Made by a program: the position numbers and the translations under genes. A DNA stretch of 64,000 bases from positions 1,528 to 65,527 of the forward strand of contig JBMFQR010000009.1 of NCBI GenBank assembly GCA_049968515.1, given 5' to 3'. Of this stretch, positions 5,105 to 31,747 are shown in pieces; position 1 is the stretch's first letter, and each line of letters starts with the position of its first letter. The notes beneath the pieces are model-generated. The model searched no databases. It saw only the letters and a program-made list of their open reading frames with translations, and was not told the origin of the DNA. Origin of the DNA: Brevinematia bacterium (GTDB lineage Bacteria > Spirochaetota > Brevinematia > Brevinematales > JAOACQ01).

Positions 5105-6049
5105 ATGGTATTTATCATAAGTATTCTAATCTTTTTGTCTGGCTTTCTATTTGGCAGTGTTAATATAAATGAAGTCATCTTCTTTGATAATATTGATGAA
5201 AGCTACAGATATACGACCAACTCAACTGAGATTATTTCAAATCTATTTGAAAACGCCACAATAAGCAACATTGCAGATAATATCAGCCTTAACACCATAG
5301 TGTACAGAATTGAAGATACCATCTACATCAAAATGAAGGCCTTCACAAACAATAATCTTATTGCCGAAGATGAGGTTTATACAAAGTATCCATTAAAAAA
5401 AGAGGGATGGCTTACTGCTATATCAAATATTTCTGAAAGGATGGTTATTATCTTAAATGGTGAAAATATAGAGCCCTATGTGTCAAAAGAAGACAGGGAA
5501 TTGAGAACAAAGATAAACAGCCTGTCTGATAATGAATTAACAGACCTGATTGAAAAAGAACTTAGTAAAGTAGAATCACTCCAGTTAATATCTTTGATGA
5601 ATATTGGTTACACCTATCCCTTGAATCTTGAGATAAGCTTCCTTGAGGTTTTTAAGACATGGAGCATTAAGAAACTATTTCATCTCGGAATTGGAACAAC
5701 CCTATTTAAGATATACCCACAACTCCCCTATGAGACCAATACAGCCACAACCATTTTTCCTGTAGAAATTTATCTCCCTGTTTTTATTTCAAAAGACTTA
5801 AAATATAATGACTTAATTATAAATTTTGAATGGGCGTGGTATAGAAATTTCTCAACACAAACAAACACCAATCAAAATGCACCTTCCGTAACAAGACCTA
5901 TATCAGAGGCAAACTATATCGATCTGAACATAAGATACTTTCTTCCCTACTCCATTATCAAAACAGGACTTCATTACAATTACATAAGGGATGAAATACT
6001 CTTTTACATAGGACTCGAGATTTTTATAGGAAAATATTCAAAAGATTGA
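5105..6049 (+). CDS. hypothetical membrane-anchored or secreted protein
   Basis: 314 aa with N-terminal hydrophobic segment MVFIISILIFLSGFLFG. The C-terminal half is rich in alternating aromatic/polar residues. No family recognised. Confidence 0.4.
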   Translation: MVFIISILIFLSGFLFGSVNINEVIFFDNIDESYRYTTNSTEIISNLFENATISNIADNISLNTIVYRIEDTIYIKMKAFTNNNLIAEDEVYTKYPLKKEGWLTAISNISERMVIILNGENIEPYVSKEDRELRTKINSLSDNELTDLIEKELSKVESLQLISLMNIGYTYPLNLEISFLEVFKTWSIKKLFHLGIGTTLFKIYPQLPYETNTATTIFPVEIYLPVFISKDLKYNDLIINFEWAWYRNFSTQTNTNQNAPSVTRPISEANYIDLNIRYFLPYSIIKTGLHYNYIRDEILFYIGLEIFIGKYSKD

Positions 6050-6050
6050 A

Positions 6051-6821
6051 CTACTTTTTCACATATAATTTTCTTATTTTTGCATACTCATCTTTTTTGG
6101 ACGGATCATATATTGAAAACCTGTCTTTTCCAAGATACTTGGCTTCATAAAGTGCATTATCCGCTTCGTGCTGTAACCTTTGATAATCCTCCTCAATCTT
6201 CTTATCATCAAGAAATTTCTGCTCCACAAATCGATAGCTAATTGAGGAAATGCCTGCACTTAAAGTCACTTTCAGATTCTCTCCTTTATATTCAATACAG
6301 ATACCCCGTACCTTATCCATAATTTTTGAAACATAAGTTTTAGCTCCTTCAACTTCAGTGGCTGGTAGTATAACATCAAACTCCTCTCCACCAAATCTTA
6401 TTACATAATCTGTAGGCCTCGAGTTGGCTTTAAGAATATTTGCAATCTCAACAAGAACCCTATCACCCACCTCATGACCATAACGATTATTAAAAACAGA
6501 AAAGTCATCTATATCAAACCTCACAAAAGAAACATGATAATACATCTGCCTGAAGCCATCATAAAATATCCTTGAAGCAGTCTTAACAATGTTAGTAAGA
6601 TAATCCCTTTTAAATTTAAGTAAATTTGTCTTTTCATCTATATTTACCTTTTCCTCAAGCAAACTGTACTTATCAAGTAAAGAAAAATATTCCAGCTCAC
6701 CAAGCCTTATAGTCTCAACTATATCATCATCAATAACACCAGCCTTATATAGCTGGGTCAAAAGCTGGATATTCCTTAGCTGAAAGTCTTTTAATTCAAT
6801 ACTTTTTCCCTCTTCATTCAT
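6051..6821 (-). CDS. GGDEF-domain diguanylate cyclase (stand-alone)
   Basis: Active site RFGGEEFDVILP preceded by RPTD five residues upstream (I-site RxxD). About 90 aa of N-terminal coiled-coil-like sequence and no recognisable sensor domain. Confidence 0.85.
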   Translation of the reverse strand: MNEEGKSIELKDFQLRNIQLLTQLYKAGVIDDDIVETIRLGELEYFSLLDKYSLLEEKVNIDEKTNLLKFKRDYLTNIVKTASRIFYDGFRQMYYHVSFVRFDIDDFSVFNNRYGHEVGDRVLVEIANILKANSRPTDYVIRFGGEEFDVILPATEVEGAKTYVSKIMDKVRGICIEYKGENLKVTLSAGISSISYRFVEQKFLDDKKIEEDYQRLQHEADNALYEAKYLGKDRFSIYDPSKKDEYAKIRKLYVKK

Positions 6822-6843
6822 AAAAAAGCTCCTGAAAAATAAT

Positions 6844-7446
6844 TCATCTTACCATTAAAGCAAGCACTCTTTTTATAATTTCTTCTACACCCATATTGTT
6901 TATATTATCTTTGTCGGAAAATACATTTTCTATTGTCTTTTTAGCCTCAAAGTCAGAATAACCCAATACTCTCAATGCCATCAAAACCTCCATTTTCTTC
7001 TTTTCAACCTCACTCAACTGTCCGGCATCTTCTAAAGGTTCCACTTTTTTTATCTTATCTCCAAGCTCAAGAATTATTCTTGAAGCAAGCTTACTTCCTA
7101 TTCCTTTAACACCTGCAAAAGCCTTTTCATTTTGAGAAATAATAGCCTTTCTTATATCATTTACAGAAAGCTCAGATAAAATTCTTAAAGATTGCTTCAA
7201 ACCAACCCCATTAACAGAAATCAGTAGCTCAAAGATTTTCTTTTCCTCCGGGGTTAAGAATCCAACAAGAGAAACCTCATTTTCCTTTATAATAAATTTC
7301 AAAAATAAATTTACCTCTTCACCAGATTCTGGAAGTGCCTCAAAAGTTTTCAAAGAGAGAAGGATTTCATAGCCAATACCATTACACTCAACTATTACCC
7401 TGCCCTCTTCTTTTCCAGCAATTCTACCCTTTATGAAGCTAAACAT
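6844..7446 (-). CDS. ruvA: Holliday junction branch-migration complex subunit RuvA
   Basis: MFSFIKGRI...VECNGIGYEI N-terminus, HhH region LISVNGVGLK and GIGSKLASRIILEL, 200 aa. Confidence 0.9.
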   Translation of the reverse strand: MFSFIKGRIAGKEEGRVIVECNGIGYEILLSLKTFEALPESGEEVNLFLKFIIKENEVSLVGFLTPEEKKIFELLISVNGVGLKQSLRILSELSVNDIRKAIISQNEKAFAGVKGIGSKLASRIILELGDKIKKVEPLEDAGQLSEVEKKKMEVLMALRVLGYSDFEAKKTIENVFSDKDNINNMGVEEIIKRVLALMVR

Positions 7447-25371: not shown

Positions 25372-25441
25372 AAGACTCTCCAGAATAAAGATTTTTCACC
25401 TAATATTATAAAGCATAATAATCTTATTGTCCAGAATAATT

Positions 25442-26689
25442 TTAAGCCTCTTTTTCTGATTTGGAAAGGTTTTTAATAAGATTTGAAAGCTCCTGACGTG
25501 TTTCATCATCATCTATAAAGAATTCAAATGCTACATTCAGTCCGGCATTTTCACCGGAAATATAGTGATACCTGACAACTCTGGATTTAATATTAAGCAA
25601 TTTATCTTTATACTTTAAAGAAAGCACAACGACTGTATTCTCTTTAATATAGTGAGTGATGTAAACATTCTTTGTGTTTGCAAGTATTCCCCCCATTGAG
25701 AGATCTATAACCGAAAACAAAACATCAGCACTCTCGCTTGTAGTCTGGGTCTTAACAATAACCTCTCCAACAATATCAGCTAGTCCCTTTATATAAAATA
25801 TTTCATAAATACTCAGAGGCTTATACTTGGGATCATTTGGAACAGAAACCTCAATAACACCAAACACTCTATCACCAATTATAATCGGAACCATACAATA
25901 GGAAATAATCCCCTTGGAAACATAACTCTGTCTGATCTGCTCAAGGATCTGAGGATTAACCTTCTTGCCTACAATTTCAAAGTATTTCTCATAACCCACA
26001 ACTCCATATTTTTCACCAAGATGAACATAACTTGTAAGATTATCGGTATCTCCAACCCAGAATGTTTTTTTATAAACATTAACAACATTTTCAATGGGAG
26101 TAAGTTTAGAAATATCCTTAAAAAGGTTAATTCTAAACCTGTTTGAAAATCTTGAAAGTTCTTCTCCAATCATCTTAATAACTTTTTTGACATCCGGCTT
26201 TTCGTTCTGAACCTCAAGATATATACTTCTCAGCGTAGCAGGTAGCTCAGCAAGATTAACAACAGAGGTTTTTGTAACCTCTGTTGCCTCAATGTTTTTA
26301 ATAAATACCTTTATTTCTTCAAGACCGGATACTCTCGGATACTTTCTTACAGAATGAAAAAGAAGCTTTTCAGGAAGGTTCATTTCAAGGTTTCTTAAAG
26401 AAGTATTAACAAGTCTTATATTAACCGGTTCAGAACTATAAAAATTATTATTTAAGTCAAAGCAGATTTTTACATTCTTTAAAGCGATAATATCTGGCAT
26501 CTCATCATAAAAAATTCCCAGCAATGAAGGATCAGCCTTGGTTATAAAACCTGATAATTGAAATCTCTTTTCCTCATTCTCAAGTCTGATTTTTACCCTG
26601 TTCAATCTCAATTTGTTGAATAGAGAAACTATTTCATTTCGCTGACTTATTTCTTTCTCCACAAGTTTTCCCCTGATTTTAAAGCTCAA
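25442..26689 (-). CDS. PilZN / GAF-like / PilZ-like protein (candidate c-di-GMP receptor)
   Basis: N-terminal YcgR-N-like segment ending LPEKLLFHSVRKYPRV (RxxxR), middle GAF-like end VPIIIGDRVFGVIEVSV, C-terminal barrel with DLSMGG (DxSxxG). Paralogue of 58898..60076. Confidence 0.45.
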   Translation of the reverse strand: MSFKIRGKLVEKEISQRNEIVSLFNKLRLNRVKIRLENEEKRFQLSGFITKADPSLLGIFYDEMPDIIALKNVKICFDLNNNFYSSEPVNIRLVNTSLRNLEMNLPEKLLFHSVRKYPRVSGLEEIKVFIKNIEATEVTKTSVVNLAELPATLRSIYLEVQNEKPDVKKVIKMIGEELSRFSNRFRINLFKDISKLTPIENVVNVYKKTFWVGDTDNLTSYVHLGEKYGVVGYEKYFEIVGKKVNPQILEQIRQSYVSKGIISYCMVPIIIGDRVFGVIEVSVPNDPKYKPLSIYEIFYIKGLADIVGEVIVKTQTTSESADVLFSVIDLSMGGILANTKNVYITHYIKENTVVVLSLKYKDKLLNIKSRVVRYHYISGENAGLNVAFEFFIDDDETRQELSNLIKNLSKSEKEA

Positions 26690-26692
26690 TTC

Positions 26693-27763
26693 CTACTGCA
26701 CAAGAACCTTATAAAATAAAATATCCCCTTTTTCATTTCCTGCAACAAGTAAACTATTATCTATACTAAAATCAATGCTAAAAACTGAACTCCCAGCACT
26801 AATTTTTTTTAAAACATTGCCTGTGTTTAAACTAAAAAAATATATGTCACCATCCCTACCACCGGAAACAACCACATCCTCATCTAAAAATCTCGCAACA
26901 AGAACACTATCAATATGTGCACTTAATACCCTTGCAGGTTTATCCAGATTATTCATATCAAAAACGACAACCTTTCCCCCTGCATCAGCAAAAAGGAAAA
27001 AGCTACTGTCTGGAGAAAAATCAACAAACTCTACAGGATAATCATTCTTAATCATTTTTTTCAGCTTCAAATCTGGAAAATTATAAAGACAAACAAGTTT
27101 TTCACTCCCACCACACAGGGCAAATTTCTCATCTTTTGAAATAGAGACACTCCAGACCTCTTTAATGCCGGTAGAGACCTCTTTCTTCAAAGACAAGTCT
27201 GGAAAACTCCACAAAACCAGCCTCCCATCAGATCCACCGGTAAGGATAAAATGATCCTTTGAGATAAATAAACTCTGTACTCCAGACCTATGACCAAAAA
27301 CCCTTGAATAAACCCTGAAAGAATTATTCACATCATAAACAACAATTTCCTCATAGGCACCAACGGCAAGAAAAGCTCCATTCTTACTAAAACTTACAGG
27401 AATACCCCACCTGCCCTTATAATCAAAAGCTATATTTGTAACAACCTTATTTTCTTTCCATCTACATACAGAAATAGTGTTATCAGCACTTCCAGAGACT
27501 ATAACATCACTCCATATATCAAGATAGAATACATAATCCTTATGTTTAAAACCATTAAACAGATAATCAACCTCTATAATTTTTTCACTTTTTCTATCCA
27601 CAGATTTAAGGGGTTTACTTTCATTAACACAGGAGAAAAAAAACAAAAAAGAAGAAATCAAAACCAAAAACATCGATATAAACAAAAAGGCTGAAGTTTC
27701 CCCCCAGCCTTTATAATTATCATAAGAAGTTCCTAACAAAATAGACACAAAGAATAAACTCAA
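26693..27763 (-). CDS. WD40-repeat beta-propeller protein with N-terminal hydrophobic anchor
   Basis: About seven blades (SGSADNTISV, TGGSDGRLVLWSF, CGGSEKLVCLYNF, SGGRDGDIYFFSL, AGNEKGDILFYKV). N-terminal FLVLISSFLFFFSC, a possible lipobox. The track start is a TTG 3 nt after the upstream stop; alternative ATG at 27673. Confidence 0.6.
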   Translation of the reverse strand: MSLFFVSILLGTSYDNYKGWGETSAFLFISMFLVLISSFLFFFSCVNESKPLKSVDRKSEKIIEVDYLFNGFKHKDYVFYLDIWSDVIVSGSADNTISVCRWKENKVVTNIAFDYKGRWGIPVSFSKNGAFLAVGAYEEIVVYDVNNSFRVYSRVFGHRSGVQSLFISKDHFILTGGSDGRLVLWSFPDLSLKKEVSTGIKEVWSVSISKDEKFALCGGSEKLVCLYNFPDLKLKKMIKNDYPVEFVDFSPDSSFFLFADAGGKVVVFDMNNLDKPARVLSAHIDSVLVARFLDEDVVVSGGRDGDIYFFSLNTGNVLKKISAGSSVFSIDFSIDNSLLVAGNEKGDILFYKVLVQ

Positions 27764-27766
27764 ACA

Positions 27767-28489
27767 TTACCAGTGATCAAGCATATCATCCGGATTCTGT
27801 TTTGTCTCAGAAAAGAGATCCACATCCGCTGTCATATAATCCAGATAGGTATAAAATGGCCTCCCCAAAATATCATCTGGATCAAAATCAAGCCTAAAAC
27901 CTATAAATGTAATACCTCTGTCCTCTGTAACCTTATAATTCTCCTGATGAATCGTGTCCGGAATGTTAATATTTACCTGTTTCCATCCAGTCCATATAAG
28001 TTTCTCTGATCTGACAACCTTCAATCTATCCAGATAGTCCTTTAGTATCAAACTTATAGAATGTTTATAATTTCTACCAACAACCCAGAGAGAAACCGTC
28101 TTGGTAATACCCTTTATCTTTATGGGTTTTGCAGGTTCAATAGTTGCCCAGCCCCACTCTCTTTTCATAAACTCAATCTTTACACCGAGTACATATTTAT
28201 TTTTGTCAGTTGCAATATCCCTCGGTGAACCCTCTCTTCTCATAGAAGTTGCAATTCCAAAGTCTCTCGGCATAAAGGCAGTCCATTCTCCTGCTGTTTC
28301 AAAATCTTCCACGAGTACAGTCTGAACAAGCTCGGTTGCTACAGTTTTATCAGCCGATTCTCTTGCGTTTGTATTAATAACCTCAAGCTCGCCAACTCTT
28401 TTATAACCCGCATCACCAACCTGCTGGGAATAAATAATCCCTGTAAGTAACAGTGTAAACAATGTAAAATAAAATATTTTCCCTTTCAT
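27767..28489 (-). CDS. flaA: FlaA-family protein (flagellar filament outer-layer protein-like)
   Basis: Signal peptide MKGKIFYFTLFTLLLTGIIYSQQ. FlaA core pattern VLVEDFE..W, LGVKIEF..REWGWATIEP, VSLWVVGRNYKHSISLILKDYLD, IWTGWKQVNINIP..IHQ, FIGFRLDFDP, YTYLDYM. Confidence 0.65.
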   Translation of the reverse strand: MKGKIFYFTLFTLLLTGIIYSQQVGDAGYKRVGELEVINTNARESADKTVATELVQTVLVEDFETAGEWTAFMPRDFGIATSMRREGSPRDIATDKNKYVLGVKIEFMKREWGWATIEPAKPIKIKGITKTVSLWVVGRNYKHSISLILKDYLDRLKVVRSEKLIWTGWKQVNINIPDTIHQENYKVTEDRGITFIGFRLDFDPDDILGRPFYTYLDYMTADVDLFSETKQNPDDMLDHW

Positions 28490-28501
28490 ATCACACCTCT
28501 C

Positions 28502-29314
28502 TTACCAAGCCTTTGTGGCAAGGTCATCGCCATTGAACCTTTCCAAATAAACATCAGTCTGAACCTGCAGATAATCAAAATAGGCATAGAATTGATCCAC
28601 TCTCTCATCGGGATACGCCCATATCTTGATAGTCTGAAGCTTCAATGGCTTTAAAAAAGGCACCCTGTTCTCAGCCTGTGGAATATATTCAGGTATCTTG
28701 GTTCTCAAGTTTCTCCATCCAACATACTTAATGTCACCCACCGGTATTCTATGGAGAAAACCCTTGTAATCAAGCAGATAAAACTCAATCCAATAATTAT
28801 AGTTTCCACCCCATACCCACATATCAAGACTTTTAATAATACCCACAAGTGGCAATGGCTCAAGTTTAGCCTCGACATCAGCATTGGGTGCACCTTGTGA
28901 GTCTAAAATACTCTTACCATCAGTCTTGGCAGGATAAAGCTCAATCCAATTATAACCTTTTTTAATAAACTGAGCCTTCACTCCCAACGACCATTTTTGC
29001 CTGACATCAACCTCCTGAGGTAAACCCAGCGGCTTTGCTTCAAAATACCTTACATTGCAGGCATTTGAATCCCACCCACTCATTTCCTTTGTGGGGTCGC
29101 TCGGTTTTGCAAATCTTGAAAACCTCACCTTCCATACAACACCATTGGTTTGATCCTTTTCATCTCCGAAATCAGAGACAGTTATAGTCTGGAGATTGAT
29201 AGTTTCTCTGCCTTTCTCAGAAAAACCAAAAGAAAAAACAACATTATAAGCTGCCATAGATATAAATAAGATCAGCAAAAAAGTAAATAACTTCAACCTT
29301 CCTTTGTATTTCAT
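28502..29314 (-). CDS. flaA: FlaA-family protein, second paralogue
   Basis: Signal peptide MKYKGRLKLFTFLLILFISMAAYN. VWKVRFSRF, LGVKAQFIKKGYNWIELYPA, LDMWVWGGNYNYWIEFYLLDYKGF, KYVGWRNLRTKIPEYIPQ, YAYFDYLQVQTD. Start moved to ATG 29314 (SD AGGAG 7 nt upstream), which removes the overlap with panD. Confidence 0.65.
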   Translation of the reverse strand: MKYKGRLKLFTFLLILFISMAAYNVVFSFGFSEKGRETINLQTITVSDFGDEKDQTNGVVWKVRFSRFAKPSDPTKEMSGWDSNACNVRYFEAKPLGLPQEVDVRQKWSLGVKAQFIKKGYNWIELYPAKTDGKSILDSQGAPNADVEAKLEPLPLVGIIKSLDMWVWGGNYNYWIEFYLLDYKGFLHRIPVGDIKYVGWRNLRTKIPEYIPQAENRVPFLKPLKLQTIKIWAYPDERVDQFYAYFDYLQVQTDVYLERFNGDDLATKAW

Positions 29315-29330
29315 ATGCCTCTCCTTAGAA

Positions 29331-29702
29331 CTATTTTTTTTCAAACAGAAGCTTCTCAATTCTGTTGTTACTATCAAGTAAAACAATTTTCGGTGTAAAA
29401 TTTTTTAATTCATTTTCATCAATCAAAGCAAAGGCGGCAATTATAACCTTATCACCCTTCTGATTCAAATGTGCAGCGGCTCCATTCAAACAGATTACTC
29501 CACTTCCTCTCTCTCCAGGAATGGCATAAGTCATAAGTCTTGACCCATTTGTAATATTCCATACATGCACCTGTTCATAGGAATGTATATCCGCTGCCTC
29601 CATAAGAGACACATCTATTGTTATACTGCCTACATAATCAATATTTGTTTCTGTAACCGCCGCTCTATGAATCTTCGACTTCAAAATACTTACAAGCATC
29701 AA
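29331..29702 (-). CDS. panD: aspartate 1-decarboxylase
   Basis: [24 protein letters not shown] (Gly-Ser self-processing site), NGAAAHL; 123 aa. Confidence 0.9.
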
Positions 29703-29755
29703 TTCAACCTACATAATACTTATTTTAATACACAAAAAAAAATATGTAAAGAGTT

Positions 29756-30448
29756 TTAATATATTTTTAAATAAAAATCTTTATTTCCCCAGTATCTTTC
29801 AATCTTATTAAGAATATCTCCATCCTCATCTTTCACATCAAACCTCACAAAGATATTATACTCCCCTACTTCAAGGAAATCCCCATCAGTTTTTCTTGCA
29901 TTCCAGTATTTTGTCAGTTGTGCCTGTCCATTAATAACCTTTATATTTTTCACACTTGAAATCAAAAATCTTGGCTTTTCTTTCCCTTTTGGAATAGCAT
30001 AAACATAAAAATCAACACTTGATGCCTTTTCTGATTTAACAACAACCGCAAAAGTAAGCTTTAAGAACTTACGTGGAGAAACACTCTGCCCACTTTTATC
30101 ATTACCAATAATTATGTAGCTCCCCGCTTTTTGAGAAGCAATCTTTTTAGAGGGTTTAACCTCTATACCTTCATCTGCAATCTTAGGTTTTTCTTCTACT
30201 TCAACAACAGATGTTGAAGAGGCAGATAATTCTCCCACTTTCTGTGATTCAGATACAACATTTGTATTACTAACCTTCTCGGTAATCTCTTCATCCATTA
30301 CAATGTTTGTAGAAGTATTTGTACCCAAAAGATTTTCCTTTAAAAGCTCTGCAACAAGATCCTTCTCAGAAGGAGTTTTTTCTTTTTTTTCACATGCTCC
30401 TATTACAAAGAATGCCAGTGCTATTAACAAAATAAAAAATCTTTTCAC
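29756..30448 (-). CDS. hypothetical lipoprotein with FlgD-Ig-like C-terminal domain
   Basis: Lipobox FFVIGACEKK. C-terminal YWNARKTDGDFLEVGEYNIFVRFDVKDEDGD resembles the FlgD Ig-like (W.G.d..G..l..G.Y...v...D..G) pattern. Confidence 0.4.
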   Translation of the reverse strand: MKRFFILLIALAFFVIGACEKKEKTPSEKDLVAELLKENLLGTNTSTNIVMDEEITEKVSNTNVVSESQKVGELSASSTSVVEVEEKPKIADEGIEVKPSKKIASQKAGSYIIIGNDKSGQSVSPRKFLKLTFAVVVKSEKASSVDFYVYAIPKGKEKPRFLISSVKNIKVINGQAQLTKYWNARKTDGDFLEVGEYNIFVRFDVKDEDGDILNKIERYWGNKDFYLKIY

Positions 30449-30457
30449 TCCAGCCTC

Positions 30458-31747
30458 CTATTCAGCCAGAAAACCAGAATATCTAAAAGAAAATAAAATC
30501 AGACCAACGGGTATCTGGGGAAAAAGACAAAAACTATTAGGAGAACTCTCCTTATTATTATCCATCAATCCAATTATTTTTGACTTGTTGGTTCCATTCA
30601 AAAATAAAGTAGCCTCGTGTGTGCCATTTTTTACATATTCACAGGCAGTTTCATAATCATAAAAATAGCTTACAACTGAATCATCAAGGGGACTTACATT
30701 AATTTTTGCAAGCAATGTCTTATTAAGAACATCTATATCAACAAAGTTACCCGTCTGTGACTTATAGCTCAACATAAAATATCTATTCAGGGCAGCTTTA
30801 TGATAAAAACCAAAACTTACAACGCCCTTGCCTCTGTTCTCTGAAATCAAAAGACTAAGCTTTCTTCTTGCAATCAACTCCTCTCTCTGATTATTGAACT
30901 GAAGTGCTGCAAACTTATAATCGATTGAAAGAACCTTTAAAAACTCTGTTATCGGAATATTTAACTTCCTCAAACCCCTGTGAACCGGATTGATTTGAAC
31001 CCCATCATTATAAAAGTTAAATAAACATACAAGAGTATAATTAAATGCCTCTTTCCCAGTATATTTTTGACCCTTCTGGCTCTTCATTTCCTTCATATAT
31101 TTTAAAGCAGCCTCATAATCCGAATGCCCATCTACAATATATACAGGAGTATTCTTAAAGAAATTTTTTACCTCTTTAAATAGTTCAACGTTATCAATCT
31201 TAAATAATTTATAATTTGTCTTAAAAAAATCAAATTCAAAAATAAGCTGTTTATCTGGAAATTTAATCAGTTTGTCTTCCAGAATACCATTCTGGTCTTT
31301 ATATAAACAACCCACTGGCTTCAAACTCGACTGGGACTCTTTTAATAAAGAATACCTCTCATTTGTATACTTCTCAAGAGGCATTTCTCCCCTTTTTACA
31401 CTTTTACCATAGTCCTCAAGCTTGAGAAGGCCTATCAACCCAGCAACCCTTCGCTGTTCCCCACCACTTACTTTTTCTGCCTCAACAACATAAAAAGAGG
31501 GTTTCTTATCTATAATCAAAACATCACGAAGCAACCAACCAAAAAATTTATTTACAGCATTTTTATACTTCTCTGCTTCATTTCCATCAGGTAATAACAA
31601 ATGAGCATAATTGTTTACTTCTTCCTTTAATTTTGATCTAACTTCTTCCGTGATGAATGCAAAGCCGGGAGAAACAAGACTCTCAATTTTACTAACTTTA
31701 TCTGGATTATAATAAACCCCTCCAAAAGGAATTACATCTGGCATCAC
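30458..31747 (-). CDS. DUF1015-family protein (tentative)
   Basis: 429 aa. The N-terminus MMPDVIPFGGVYYNPDKV resembles the ..I.PF.a.rY start of the DUF1015 family. Low certainty. Confidence 0.35.
   Translation of the reverse strand: MMPDVIPFGGVYYNPDKVSKIESLVSPGFAFITEEVRSKLKEEVNNYAHLLLPDGNEAEKYKNAVNKFFGWLLRDVLIIDKKPSFYVVEAEKVSGGEQRRVAGLIGLLKLEDYGKSVKRGEMPLEKYTNERYSLLKESQSSLKPVGCLYKDQNGILEDKLIKFPDKQLIFEFDFFKTNYKLFKIDNVELFKEVKNFFKNTPVYIVDGHSDYEAALKYMKEMKSQKGQKYTGKEAFNYTLVCLFNFYNDGVQINPVHRGLRKLNIPITEFLKVLSIDYKFAALQFNNQREELIARRKLSLLISENRGKGVVSFGFYHKAALNRYFMLSYKSQTGNFVDIDVLNKTLLAKINVSPLDDSVVSYFYDYETACEYVKNGTHEATLFLNGTNKSKIIGLMDNNKESSPNSFCLFPQIPVGLILFSFRYSGFLAE

What the first reader, a model, noticed from the sequence alone, without database searches (positions are those of the whole stretch)
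25442..29314. flaA-flaA-WD40-PilZ-like operon: possible undescribed sheath accessory and c-di-GMP input for FlaA-coated flagella
Seen in sequence:
- Four minus-strand genes are separated by only 12, 3 and 3 nt.
- Two are paralogous signal-peptide proteins with the FlaA-family core (WVWG.NY, GW..L...IP..I.Q, Y.YFDYL).
- The third is a seven-blade WD40 propeller with an N-terminal hydrophobic anchor or possible lipobox.
- The fourth is a PilZN/GAF-like/PilZ-like protein.

Established knowledge: FlaA proteins form the outer layer of spirochaete periplasmic flagellar filaments. As far as I know, the described sheath accessory proteins (FcpA/FcpB of Leptospira) are not WD40 proteins. PilZ proteins commonly couple c-di-GMP to motility, but usually at the motor (YcgR-type), not in sheath operons.

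Inference: the WD40 protein could be a periplasmic sheath or assembly partner. The PilZ-like protein could be a second-messenger input co-expressed with it.
Basis: partly seen in the sequence, partly recalled or inferred. Interest (0 to 1): 0.65.

Follow-up and report, generated by a model that had tools for sequence, protein, structure and literature searches.

The report
Sheath genes, propeller lipoprotein, c-di-GMP receptor
In a hot-spring spirochaete lineage, two ordinary flagellar-sheath genes are always followed by a terminator and then a membrane-tethered propeller protein and an already-described type of c-di-GMP receptor, so only the propeller partner and the conserved neighbourhood are new.

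Summary
Two are FlaA sheath proteins. One is a seven-blade WD40 lipoprotein. One has a PilZN / GAF-like / PilZ architecture.

- **Gene spacing.** With starts placed by orthologue alignment, the gaps are 12, 93 and 30 nt, not 12, 3 and 3.
- **Terminator.** The 93-nt gap holds a covarying intrinsic terminator.
- **Transcription.** Metatranscriptome contigs laid on a relative end at that terminator. Two other contigs span the WD40/PilZ junction. The locus therefore reads as an abundant flaA1-flaA2 message followed by a weaker WD40-PilZ pair.
- **The PilZ protein.** It is a YcgR homologue with a GAF-like insertion (YcgR^GAZ), a family published in 2025. One Leptospira member was shown to bind c-di-GMP. 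It is motor-type, not a sheath-specific input.
- **Conservation.** The block DUF1015-lipoprotein-panD-flaA1-flaA2-WD40-ycgR^GAZ is intact in all 21 genomes of one Brevinematales clade, although its flanks differ. One metagenome contig lacks only the WD40 gene. Four flaA tandems outside the clade lack both WD40 and ycgR.
- **The WD40 protein.** Nothing shows it is a sheath component, and its lipid anchor argues against that.

The parts
28502..29314 (-). flaA1-like gene: a 270-aa secreted FlaA-family sheath protein. Start ATG 29314, preceded by the ribosome-binding site AAGGAGAGG.
   Evidence: Pfam FlaA PF04620, 6.4e-24. Best NCBIfam match is Leptospira FlaA1, but far below its cut-off. The ribosome-binding site is read.
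27767..28489 (-). flaA2-like gene: a 240-aa secreted FlaA-family sheath protein, 12 nt after flaA1.
   Evidence: Pfam FlaA, 9.8e-20. Best NCBIfam match is Leptospira FlaA2, below its cut-off. Alignment A3 has 67% mean column identity.
27677..27712 (-). Intrinsic-terminator-like hairpin (AAAGGCTG...CAGCCTTT) with a T-run, lying between flaA2 and the WD40 gene.
   Evidence: Found by the terminator scan. The motif occurs once in the 64-kb window. RNAalifold on 19 loci gives 10 pairs, 7 of them with compensatory changes. RNA contigs laid on relative L002 end at the equivalent site.
26693..27673 (-). WD40 lipoprotein: a 326-aa precursor with signal peptide MFLVLISSFLFFFS|C, a disordered tether and a seven-blade propeller. 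The longest ORF would start at TTG 27763.
   Evidence: Pfam WD40. Cys15 is invariant in 23 sequences. AlphaFold2 mean pLDDT 93. Foldseek top hits are WDR61, WDR5 and G-beta with TM about 0.8.
25442..26662 (-). ycgR^GAZ: a 406-aa cytoplasmic c-di-GMP receptor candidate. It has a PilZN barrel, RxxxR, one strand, a GAF-like insert and a PilZ barrel with DxSxxG. Start GTG 26662, preceded by AGGGGA. The longest ORF would start at TTG 26689.
   Evidence: Pfam PilZ. Alignment A1 has R115 and R119 invariant, D329 nearly invariant, and S331 and G334 invariant, in 415-aa numbering. AlphaFold2 model. Foldseek hits to YcgR, MrkH, MotI and PP4397, then phytochrome GAF domains. Family described in PMC11800159.
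29331..29702 (-). panD (aspartate 1-decarboxylase), 16 nt upstream of flaA1 and part of the conserved block. A sigma-70-like promoter candidate lies inside its 3' end at 29440-29468.
   Evidence: Pfam Asp_decarbox, 4.4e-51. Promoter scan. Present in the block in 20 of 20 genomes.
29756..30448 (-). Conserved 230-aa lipoprotein of unknown function with a conserved C-terminal beta-rich domain. Part of the conserved block.
   Evidence: Cys19 is invariant. No Pfam match for the window's own protein. FlgD_ig matches weakly (E = 0.012) in 2 of 7 orthologues.
30458..31747 (-). DUF1015 protein (429 aa), the first gene of the conserved seven-gene block.
   Evidence: Pfam PF06245, 6.7e-45. Present in the block in 20 of 20 genomes.

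Best explanation
The four genes form two adjacent expression units inside a seven-gene block. The block, DUF1015 - lipoprotein - panD - flaA1 - flaA2 - WD40 - ycgR^GAZ, is fixed in one clade of Brevinematales spirochaetes.

Unit 1 is flaA1-flaA2. It encodes two Sec-secreted FlaA-family sheath proteins of the periplasmic flagellar filament. FlaA pairs are also adjacent in Leptospira and Treponema denticola. The unit ends at a conserved intrinsic terminator.

Unit 2 is a less abundant message that carries both remaining genes. There is no room for a promoter between the terminator and the WD40 start, so this message probably arises by read-through of the terminator. This step is inferred.
- The first gene encodes a lipid-anchored periplasmic seven-blade WD40 propeller.
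- The second encodes a cytoplasmic YcgR homologue with a GAF-like domain inserted into its PilZ domain (YcgR^GAZ).

Proposed mechanism for YcgR^GAZ. It binds c-di-GMP through its conserved RxxxR and D/NxSxxG motifs. It then acts on the flagellar rotor or stator as a brake or clutch, as YcgR, MotI and PlzA do. The motifs and fold are shown here. Binding is shown only for a Leptospira homologue. The target is inferred.

Proposed role for the WD40 lipoprotein. It is a membrane-tethered periplasmic adaptor for an unknown partner. I put the chance of any flagellar role at about 40-45%, and rate a motor-proximal role as more likely than a sheath role. It is not a stoichiometric sheath subunit.
For: - Families and folds.
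- c-di-GMP motifs are invariant or nearly so in 35 orthologues.
- The family and its c-di-GMP binding are published (PMC11800159).
- The lipobox cysteine is invariant.
- The terminator is conserved with compensatory changes in 7 of 10 pairs. The motif occurs once in the window.
- Metatranscriptome contigs on relative L002 cover flaA1-flaA2 and end at 5886/5888 or 5969, at the hairpins. Coverage is zero over 5970-6860. Two independent contigs span the WD40 stop and ycgR start.
- The block is intact in 20 of 20 species-representative genomes plus the window. At least 4-5 different contexts occur on each flank.
- 21 of 22 informative metagenome contigs have WD40 directly after flaA2.
- Within close relatives YcgR^GAZ is 80-91% identical, as conserved as the FlaA proteins. 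WD40 is only 45-59% identical.
Against: - The RNA evidence comes from assembled contigs of a relative, not from this genome. Contig depth is a poor measure of expression, so zero coverage does not prove termination.
- No run holds the window's own sequence.
- panD and DUF1015 are in the same conserved block, so gene order alone does not prove a shared function.
- The published survey found flagellar genes rare near YcgR^GAZ genes.
- No data bear directly on what the WD40 protein or this YcgR^GAZ binds.
- Pfam DUF1577 does not match the window's own protein at E <= 1.
Confidence: 0.6

Rival explanations
1. All four genes form one sheath operon. The WD40 protein is a periplasmic sheath or sheath-assembly partner of FlaA1/FlaA2. 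The PilZ protein is a c-di-GMP input co-expressed for the sheath.
For: WD40 lies directly after flaA2 in 21 genomes and in 21 of 22 informative contigs. It is exported to the periplasm. Expression probably depends on read-through from the flaA promoter, because there is no room for a promoter after the terminator.
Against: - A lipid anchor is hard to reconcile with a subunit of a rotating filament.
- A conserved terminator separates WD40 from flaA2, and RNA coverage drops there.
- The known sheath accessory proteins named FlaAP are helical: T. denticola FlaAP1 is a HEAT-repeat protein and Leptospira FlaAP has alpha-helical bundles. None of the named sheath proteins is described as a WD40.
- L045 keeps flaA1-flaA2-ycgR but has no WD40 gene.
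- Four flaA tandems outside the clade have no WD40.
- The PilZ protein is a YcgR-type motor regulator.
Confidence: 0.1
2. Frozen synteny without shared function. The WD40 lipoprotein is a surface, outer-membrane or general periplasmic scaffold unrelated to flagella. The adjacency of WD40 and ycgR^GAZ to flaA is historical, as it is for panD and DUF1015.
For: - The block also contains panD, a metabolic gene.
- WD40 is the fastest-evolving gene of the block, at 32-59% identity. That fits an exposed or weakly constrained protein.
- WD40 has been lost in L045.
- The fold is a generic WD40 with no informative structural neighbour.
- No paper in the searched library links WD40 proteins to periplasmic flagella.
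Against: - The block stays intact while both flanks were rearranged several times.
- WD40 and ycgR^GAZ are co-transcribed and closely spaced in every locus.
- YcgR-family proteins are flagellar regulators wherever they have been tested (PMC11800159).
Confidence: 0.3

Closest known systems
YcgR^GAZ family (e.g. Leptospira interrogans LIC_11920; Visnardi et al. 2025, PMC11800159; Pfam DUF1577 + PilZ)
   Same: It has the same architecture: a PilZN barrel, RxxxR, the first PilZ strand, an inserted GAF-like ('GAZ') domain, then the rest of the PilZ barrel with D/NxSxxG. The family was already reported in Brevinematales, in Thermospira aquatica.
   Different: Here one orthologue is fixed next to flaA1-flaA2 and a WD40 lipoprotein gene throughout a clade. 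The paper found flagellar genes rare near YcgR^GAZ genes. Pfam DUF1577 matches only 10 of 35 orthologues in my scan and not the window's own protein. Binding is untested for this protein.
Canonical YcgR / MotI (DgrA) / PP4397 / MrkH / PlzD two-domain PilZ proteins
   Same: These are the top Foldseek matches (E = 1e-8 to 4e-4), with alignments running through both barrels. The YcgR-N domain alone (5y6h) matches with TMt 0.65. The c-di-GMP motifs are the same.
   Different: An insertion of about 165-200 residues (GAF-like domain at 151-315) separates RxxxR from D/NxSxxG. No interaction with FliG, FliM or MotA has been shown.
Tandem flaA genes of Leptospira (flaA2-flaA1 operon) and Treponema denticola (TDE1408-TDE1409, FlaA1/FlaA2)
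   Same: Two adjacent genes encode Sec-secreted FlaA-domain proteins of about 240-310 aa. Tandem flaA pairs were also seen in four other spirochaete loci.
   Different: By sub-threshold NCBIfam best match, the order here is FlaA1-like then FlaA2-like. In Leptospira flaA2 lies upstream. The scores are far below the Leptospira equivalog cut-offs. No WD40 or ycgR follows the tandem in the four loci sampled outside the clade.
Known sheath accessory proteins: FcpA/FcpB and FlaAP (Leptospira), FlaAP1/FlaAP2 (T. denticola)
   Same: They are periplasmic proteins associated with FlaA-coated filaments.
   Different: T. denticola FlaAP1 is a HEAT-repeat protein, FlaAP2 is only 139 aa, and Leptospira FlaAP has alpha-helical bundles. 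As far as I know FcpA and FcpB are not propellers either. In the two sheath papers searched for the term, 'WD40' does not occur. The protein here is a WD40 propeller with a lipid anchor.
Periplasmic beta-propeller proteins such as BamB (lipoprotein) and TolB
   Same: Like BamB, it is a membrane-tethered periplasmic propeller that would serve as an interaction platform.
   Different: It is a canonical seven-blade WD40 (PF00400). By my own knowledge BamB is an eight-blade PQQ-like propeller and TolB a six-blade one. Neither appears in the top 50 Foldseek hits.

Membership tests
FlaA (Pfam PF04620, flagellar filament outer layer protein) | Match to the family HMM above the gathering score | tested here: met
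   85.3 bits and 71.6 bits against a cut-off of 25.
FlaA (Pfam PF04620) | Sec signal peptide for export to the periplasm | tested here: met
   Both proteins have a basic N-terminus followed by a hydrophobic stretch, and this is conserved in the orthologues. This was read by eye; no predictor was run.
Leptospira FlaA1 / FlaA2 equivalogs (NCBIfam NF047845 / NF047846) | Score above the equivalog cut-off | tested here: not met
   85.6 bits against 500, and 63.9 bits against 440. Only the ranking of the best match supports the labels FlaA1-like and FlaA2-like.
YcgR^GAZ (PMC11800159) | N-terminal PilZN barrel plus C-terminal PilZ barrel | tested here: met
   The AlphaFold2 model has barrels at 12-113 and 325-391. 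Foldseek matches YcgR, MrkH, MotI, PP4397 and the YcgR-N domain. Pfam PilZ scores 26.1 bits against a cut-off of 22.5.
YcgR^GAZ (PMC11800159) | GAF-like domain inserted after RxxxR and the first PilZ strand | tested here: met
   RxxxR lies at 115-119, a strand at 127-135 and an alpha/beta domain at 151-315. That domain matches phytochrome GAF domains. Pfam GAF matches weakly in 23-26 of 35 orthologues.
YcgR^GAZ (PMC11800159) | Conserved c-di-GMP motifs RxxxR and [D/N]xSxxG | tested here: met
   R115, R119, S331 and G334 are invariant and D329 is at least 90% conserved in 35 sequences.
YcgR^GAZ (PMC11800159) | Match to Pfam DUF1577 (PF07614) | tested here: inconclusive
   DUF1577 is listed in the precomputed domains of all 35 homologues. 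My own hmmscan finds it in 10 of 35 (best 5e-10) and not in the window's own protein at E <= 1.
YcgR^GAZ (PMC11800159) | Binds c-di-GMP | not testable with these tools
   Shown by ITC only for L. interrogans LIC_11920.
WD40 repeat propeller (PF00400) | HMM match and a seven-blade propeller fold | tested here: met
   70.9 bits against a cut-off of 27. The model has 28 strands and mean pLDDT 93. TM is about 0.8 to WDR61, WDR5 and G-beta.
Bacterial lipoprotein | Signal peptide ending in a lipobox with an invariant Cys | tested here: met
   The sequence is ...FFFS-C15. The cysteine is invariant in 23 orthologues, with S, A, G or T at position -1, and a disordered tether follows. Acylation itself cannot be tested here.
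Single four-gene operon | Continuous transcript with no internal terminator | tested here: not met
   A covarying terminator follows flaA2. RNA contigs laid on relative L002 end there and no contig bridges flaA2 to WD40 in six runs. Weak read-through is not excluded.
Spirochaete sheath accessory proteins (FcpA/FcpB/FlaAP) | Resemblance in fold to, or identity with, a known sheath accessory protein | tested here: not met
   The FlaAP proteins whose folds are described are helical (HEAT repeats or alpha-helical bundles). The protein here is a canonical WD40 propeller. Physical presence in filaments cannot be tested here.

The most novel reading that the evidence does not exclude
The WD40 lipoprotein is a clade-specific periplasmic component of the flagellar apparatus. 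It could be a stator or collar scaffold, or a factor that guides sheath assembly. It would be functionally paired with the cytoplasmic YcgR^GAZ made from the same mRNA. Together they would form a module that spans the inner membrane and links c-di-GMP level to flagellar output. This would be the first genomic-context evidence that a YcgR^GAZ protein is a flagellar regulator.
Probability: 0.2. Interest if true: 0.6.

Novelty: new variant of a known kind. Interest (0 to 1): 0.38.

Why it matters
The target of YcgR^GAZ proteins is an open question. The paper that defined the family found no flagellar gene context for them (PMC11800159). In this Brevinematales clade one orthologue always sits beside the sheath genes. 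It is also as conserved as the FlaA proteins. That gives a concrete reason to test it as the motility brake of this lineage.

The block is also present in L028, the complete genome of 'Brevinematales bacterium NS', which may be a cultured strain. If so, the test could be done there.

The co-transcribed WD40 lipoprotein is an unstudied candidate partner. The conserved terminator explains how abundant sheath proteins and scarce regulators can share one locus. If the WD40 protein proves unrelated to flagella, the locus is ordinary.

Tried and rejected
I could not look in the window's own genome for further FlaA, YcgR or WD40 copies. I also could not check L045's genome for a relocated WD40 gene.
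- No public sequencing run holds the window's own sequence. RNA evidence had to come from relative L002.
I used the FlaA2 alignment instead.
- A BamB-like or TolB-like reading of the propeller is rejected. It is a seven-blade canonical WD40, and neither protein appears in the top 50 Foldseek hits.
- The idea that the PilZ domain is degenerate because RxxxR is missing is rejected. The Pfam match starts at profile position 23. The motif lies about 210 residues upstream, before the insert, and is invariant.
- The idea that the hairpin is a generic repeated terminator is rejected. The motif occurs once in the 64-kb window.
- A profile of the upstream lipoprotein against PDB sequences gave nothing significant. 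Pfam FlgD_ig matches only weakly.
- I considered a promoter for the WD40 gene between the terminator and its start. Only about 8-60 nt are available in most loci, which is too little.
- A literature search linking WD40 proteins to periplasmic flagella found no paper.

Full report
**1. What is in the sequence**

Four co-directional minus-strand ORFs occupy 25442-29386.
- The 270-aa protein matches FlaA (PF04620) at 6.4e-24.
- The 240-aa protein matches FlaA at 9.8e-20.
- The third protein matches WD40 (PF00400) at 70.9 bits.
- The fourth protein has a C-terminal PilZ domain (PF07238) at 26.1 bits against a cut-off of 22.5.

NCBIfam ranks the first FlaA protein nearest Leptospira FlaA1 and the second nearest FlaA2. 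Both scores are far below the equivalog cut-offs. The neighbours are panD, a lipoprotein, DUF1015 and clpC upstream, and mraY and an AMMECR1 gene downstream. Names attached to homologues place the organism in Brevinematales.

**2. Start codons and gaps**

The '3 and 3 nt' gaps come from taking the longest ORFs.

All 23 aligned WD40 orthologues begin with a short hydrophobic signal peptide that ends in an invariant cysteine. In the window this corresponds to ATG 27673 (MFLVLISSFLFFFS-C). The gap after flaA2 is therefore 93 nt.

The PilZ-protein orthologues start at MEKEI. In the window this is GTG 26662, six nt after AGGGGA. That gives a 406-aa protein and a 30-nt gap.

The flaA1 start at 29314 has a strong ribosome-binding site. 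The 12-nt flaA1-flaA2 gap is correct.

**3. A conserved terminator splits the locus**

The 93-nt gap holds a hairpin, AAAGGCTG...CAGCCTTT, followed by a T-run at 27712-27677.
- Equivalent hairpins follow flaA2 in nearly all related loci.
- RNAalifold on 19 loci gives a 10-pair stem in which 7 pairs show compensatory changes.
- The motif occurs once in the 64-kb window, so it is not a generic repeat.

No public run holds the window's own sequence. Six hot-spring-mat metatranscriptomes do hold sequence of relative L002, whose FlaA proteins are 81% identical to the window's. Laid on L002, their contigs show the following.
- They cover the lipoprotein gene, panD, flaA1 and flaA2.
- They end at 5886 or 5888 (two runs) or at 5969 (one run), at the foot of the hairpins that follow the flaA2 stop at 5863.
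- No contig crosses 5970-6860.
- Thin contigs at 6914-7158 and 6862-7121 span the WD40 stop and ycgR start (6987/6990).

Contig depth is a poor measure of expression, and this is a relative, so the evidence is supportive rather than conclusive. The simplest reading is an abundant flaA1-flaA2 message followed by a weaker WD40-ycgR message. Most loci leave no room for a promoter after the terminator. The weaker message therefore probably arises by read-through. This step is inferred.

**4. The PilZ protein is a YcgR^GAZ**

In 35 orthologues R115 and R119 (RxxxR) are invariant. In the second motif ([D/N]xSxxG), S331 and G334 are invariant and D329 is at least 90% conserved. About 210 residues separate the two motifs.

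The AlphaFold2 model has mean pLDDT 80. It shows these elements in order:
- an N-terminal barrel at 12-113;
- one strand at 127-135;
- an alpha/beta domain at 151-315;
- a second barrel at 325-391.

The top Foldseek matches in the PDB are MrkH, YcgR, PP4397, MotI and PlzD, with alignments that run through both barrels. Phytochrome GAF domains follow.

This is exactly the architecture published as YcgR^GAZ (PMC11800159).
- A GAF-like domain is inserted after RxxxR and the first PilZ strand.
- c-di-GMP binding was shown by ITC for LIC_11920.
- The family was reported in Leptospirales, in Thermospira aquatica (Brevinematales) and in some Spirochaetales.
- The paper notes that flagellar genes are rare near these genes.

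Pfam DUF1577 matches 10 of 35 orthologues in my scan, but not the window's own protein. The protein is therefore a YcgR-type, motor-directed receptor candidate.

**5. The WD40 protein**

AlphaFold2 (mean pLDDT 93) gives a signal helix, a disordered tether and a 28-strand, seven-blade propeller. The Foldseek neighbours are generic WD40 proteins (WDR61, WDR5, G-beta, TLE) at TM about 0.8. No BamB or TolB appears in the top 50.

It is the fastest-evolving gene of the block. It is 45-59% identical in the genomes where YcgR^GAZ is 80-91% and FlaA 74-90% identical.

The known FlaAP sheath accessories whose folds are described are helical. None of the named sheath proteins is described as a WD40. No paper in the searched library links WD40 proteins to periplasmic flagella.

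**6. Distribution**

- A scan of species-representative genomes with the YcgR^GAZ alignment found 20 Brevinematales genomes.
- My HMMs find DUF1015 - lipoprotein - panD - flaA1 - flaA2 - WD40 - ycgR^GAZ in the same order in all 20.
- At least 4-5 different neighbourhoods occur on each flank.
- In metagenome contigs, 21 of 22 informative loci have WD40 directly after flaA2. Several of these loci are duplicates.
- The exception, L045, keeps flaA1 - flaA2 - terminator - ycgR^GAZ with the usual downstream genes. It has no WD40 gene. WD40 is therefore dispensable in at least one lineage.
- Outside the clade I sampled four flaA-flaA tandems: another Brevinematales MAG and three other contigs whose organisms are not named. 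None has WD40 or ycgR downstream.

Tandem flaA genes are therefore widespread. They are also known from Leptospira, where flaA2 lies upstream of flaA1, and from T. denticola TDE1408-1409. The WD40-ycgR addition is specific to this clade.

**7. Verdict**

The operon reading and the 'sheath accessory / sheath-specific c-di-GMP input' reading are not supported as stated. The flaA pair and the YcgR^GAZ are known kinds.

Two things are new:
- the invariant placement of one YcgR^GAZ orthologue beside the sheath genes;
- its co-transcribed WD40 lipoprotein partner, whose function is still unknown.

panD and DUF1015 share the conserved block, so gene order alone cannot establish function.

No genome-wide census of paralogues was possible.

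Noticed in passing
L045:6720-8127: A natural variant of the block. After flaA2 and the conserved terminator comes a spacer of about 130 nt and then ycgR^GAZ directly, with no WD40 gene. The upstream block and the downstream cNMP-binding and K-channel genes are as in relatives that do have WD40.
   Followed up: partly
L035:6249-10198 and L036:6461-10128: In two loci outside the clade (organisms not named) the flaA-flaA tandem is followed by a 257-273-aa protein with no Pfam match, a bactofilin and a cNMP-binding histidine kinase. This may be a different conserved flaA neighbourhood.
   Followed up: no
window 29331-31747: panD, a lipoprotein and DUF1015 are closely spaced upstream of flaA1 (gaps of 9, 53 and 16 nt) and are conserved with it in every genome of the clade. 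RNA contigs laid on relative L002 also cover the lipoprotein gene and panD. It is odd to find a beta-alanine biosynthesis gene locked to sheath genes.
   Followed up: partly
window 29756-30448: The conserved lipoprotein has an invariant Cys19, a low-complexity linker of variable length and a conserved C-terminal domain with the motifs NGQAQLTKYWN, YNIY and RYWG. Pfam FlgD_ig matches weakly in 2 of 7 orthologues. A PDB sequence-profile search gave nothing significant.
   Followed up: partly
L032:9995-11245: In one long-read MAG the ycgR^GAZ gene is split into three ORFs. This could be frameshift errors or a pseudogene.
   Followed up: no
window 25405-25433: A strong sigma-70-like promoter (TGGACA-17-TATAAT, 11 of 12 matches) lies between ycgR^GAZ and mraY, so mraY probably has its own promoter. 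The mraY adjacency occurs only in the window's subclade. Most relatives have a cNMP-binding protein and a K+ channel there instead.
   Followed up: partly
L034:4339-7789: The metagenome assembly that also yielded block locus L008 holds a second flaA-flaA tandem, next to fliS and a spermidine synthase gene. It could belong to another organism or be a second FlaA pair in the same one.
   Followed up: no
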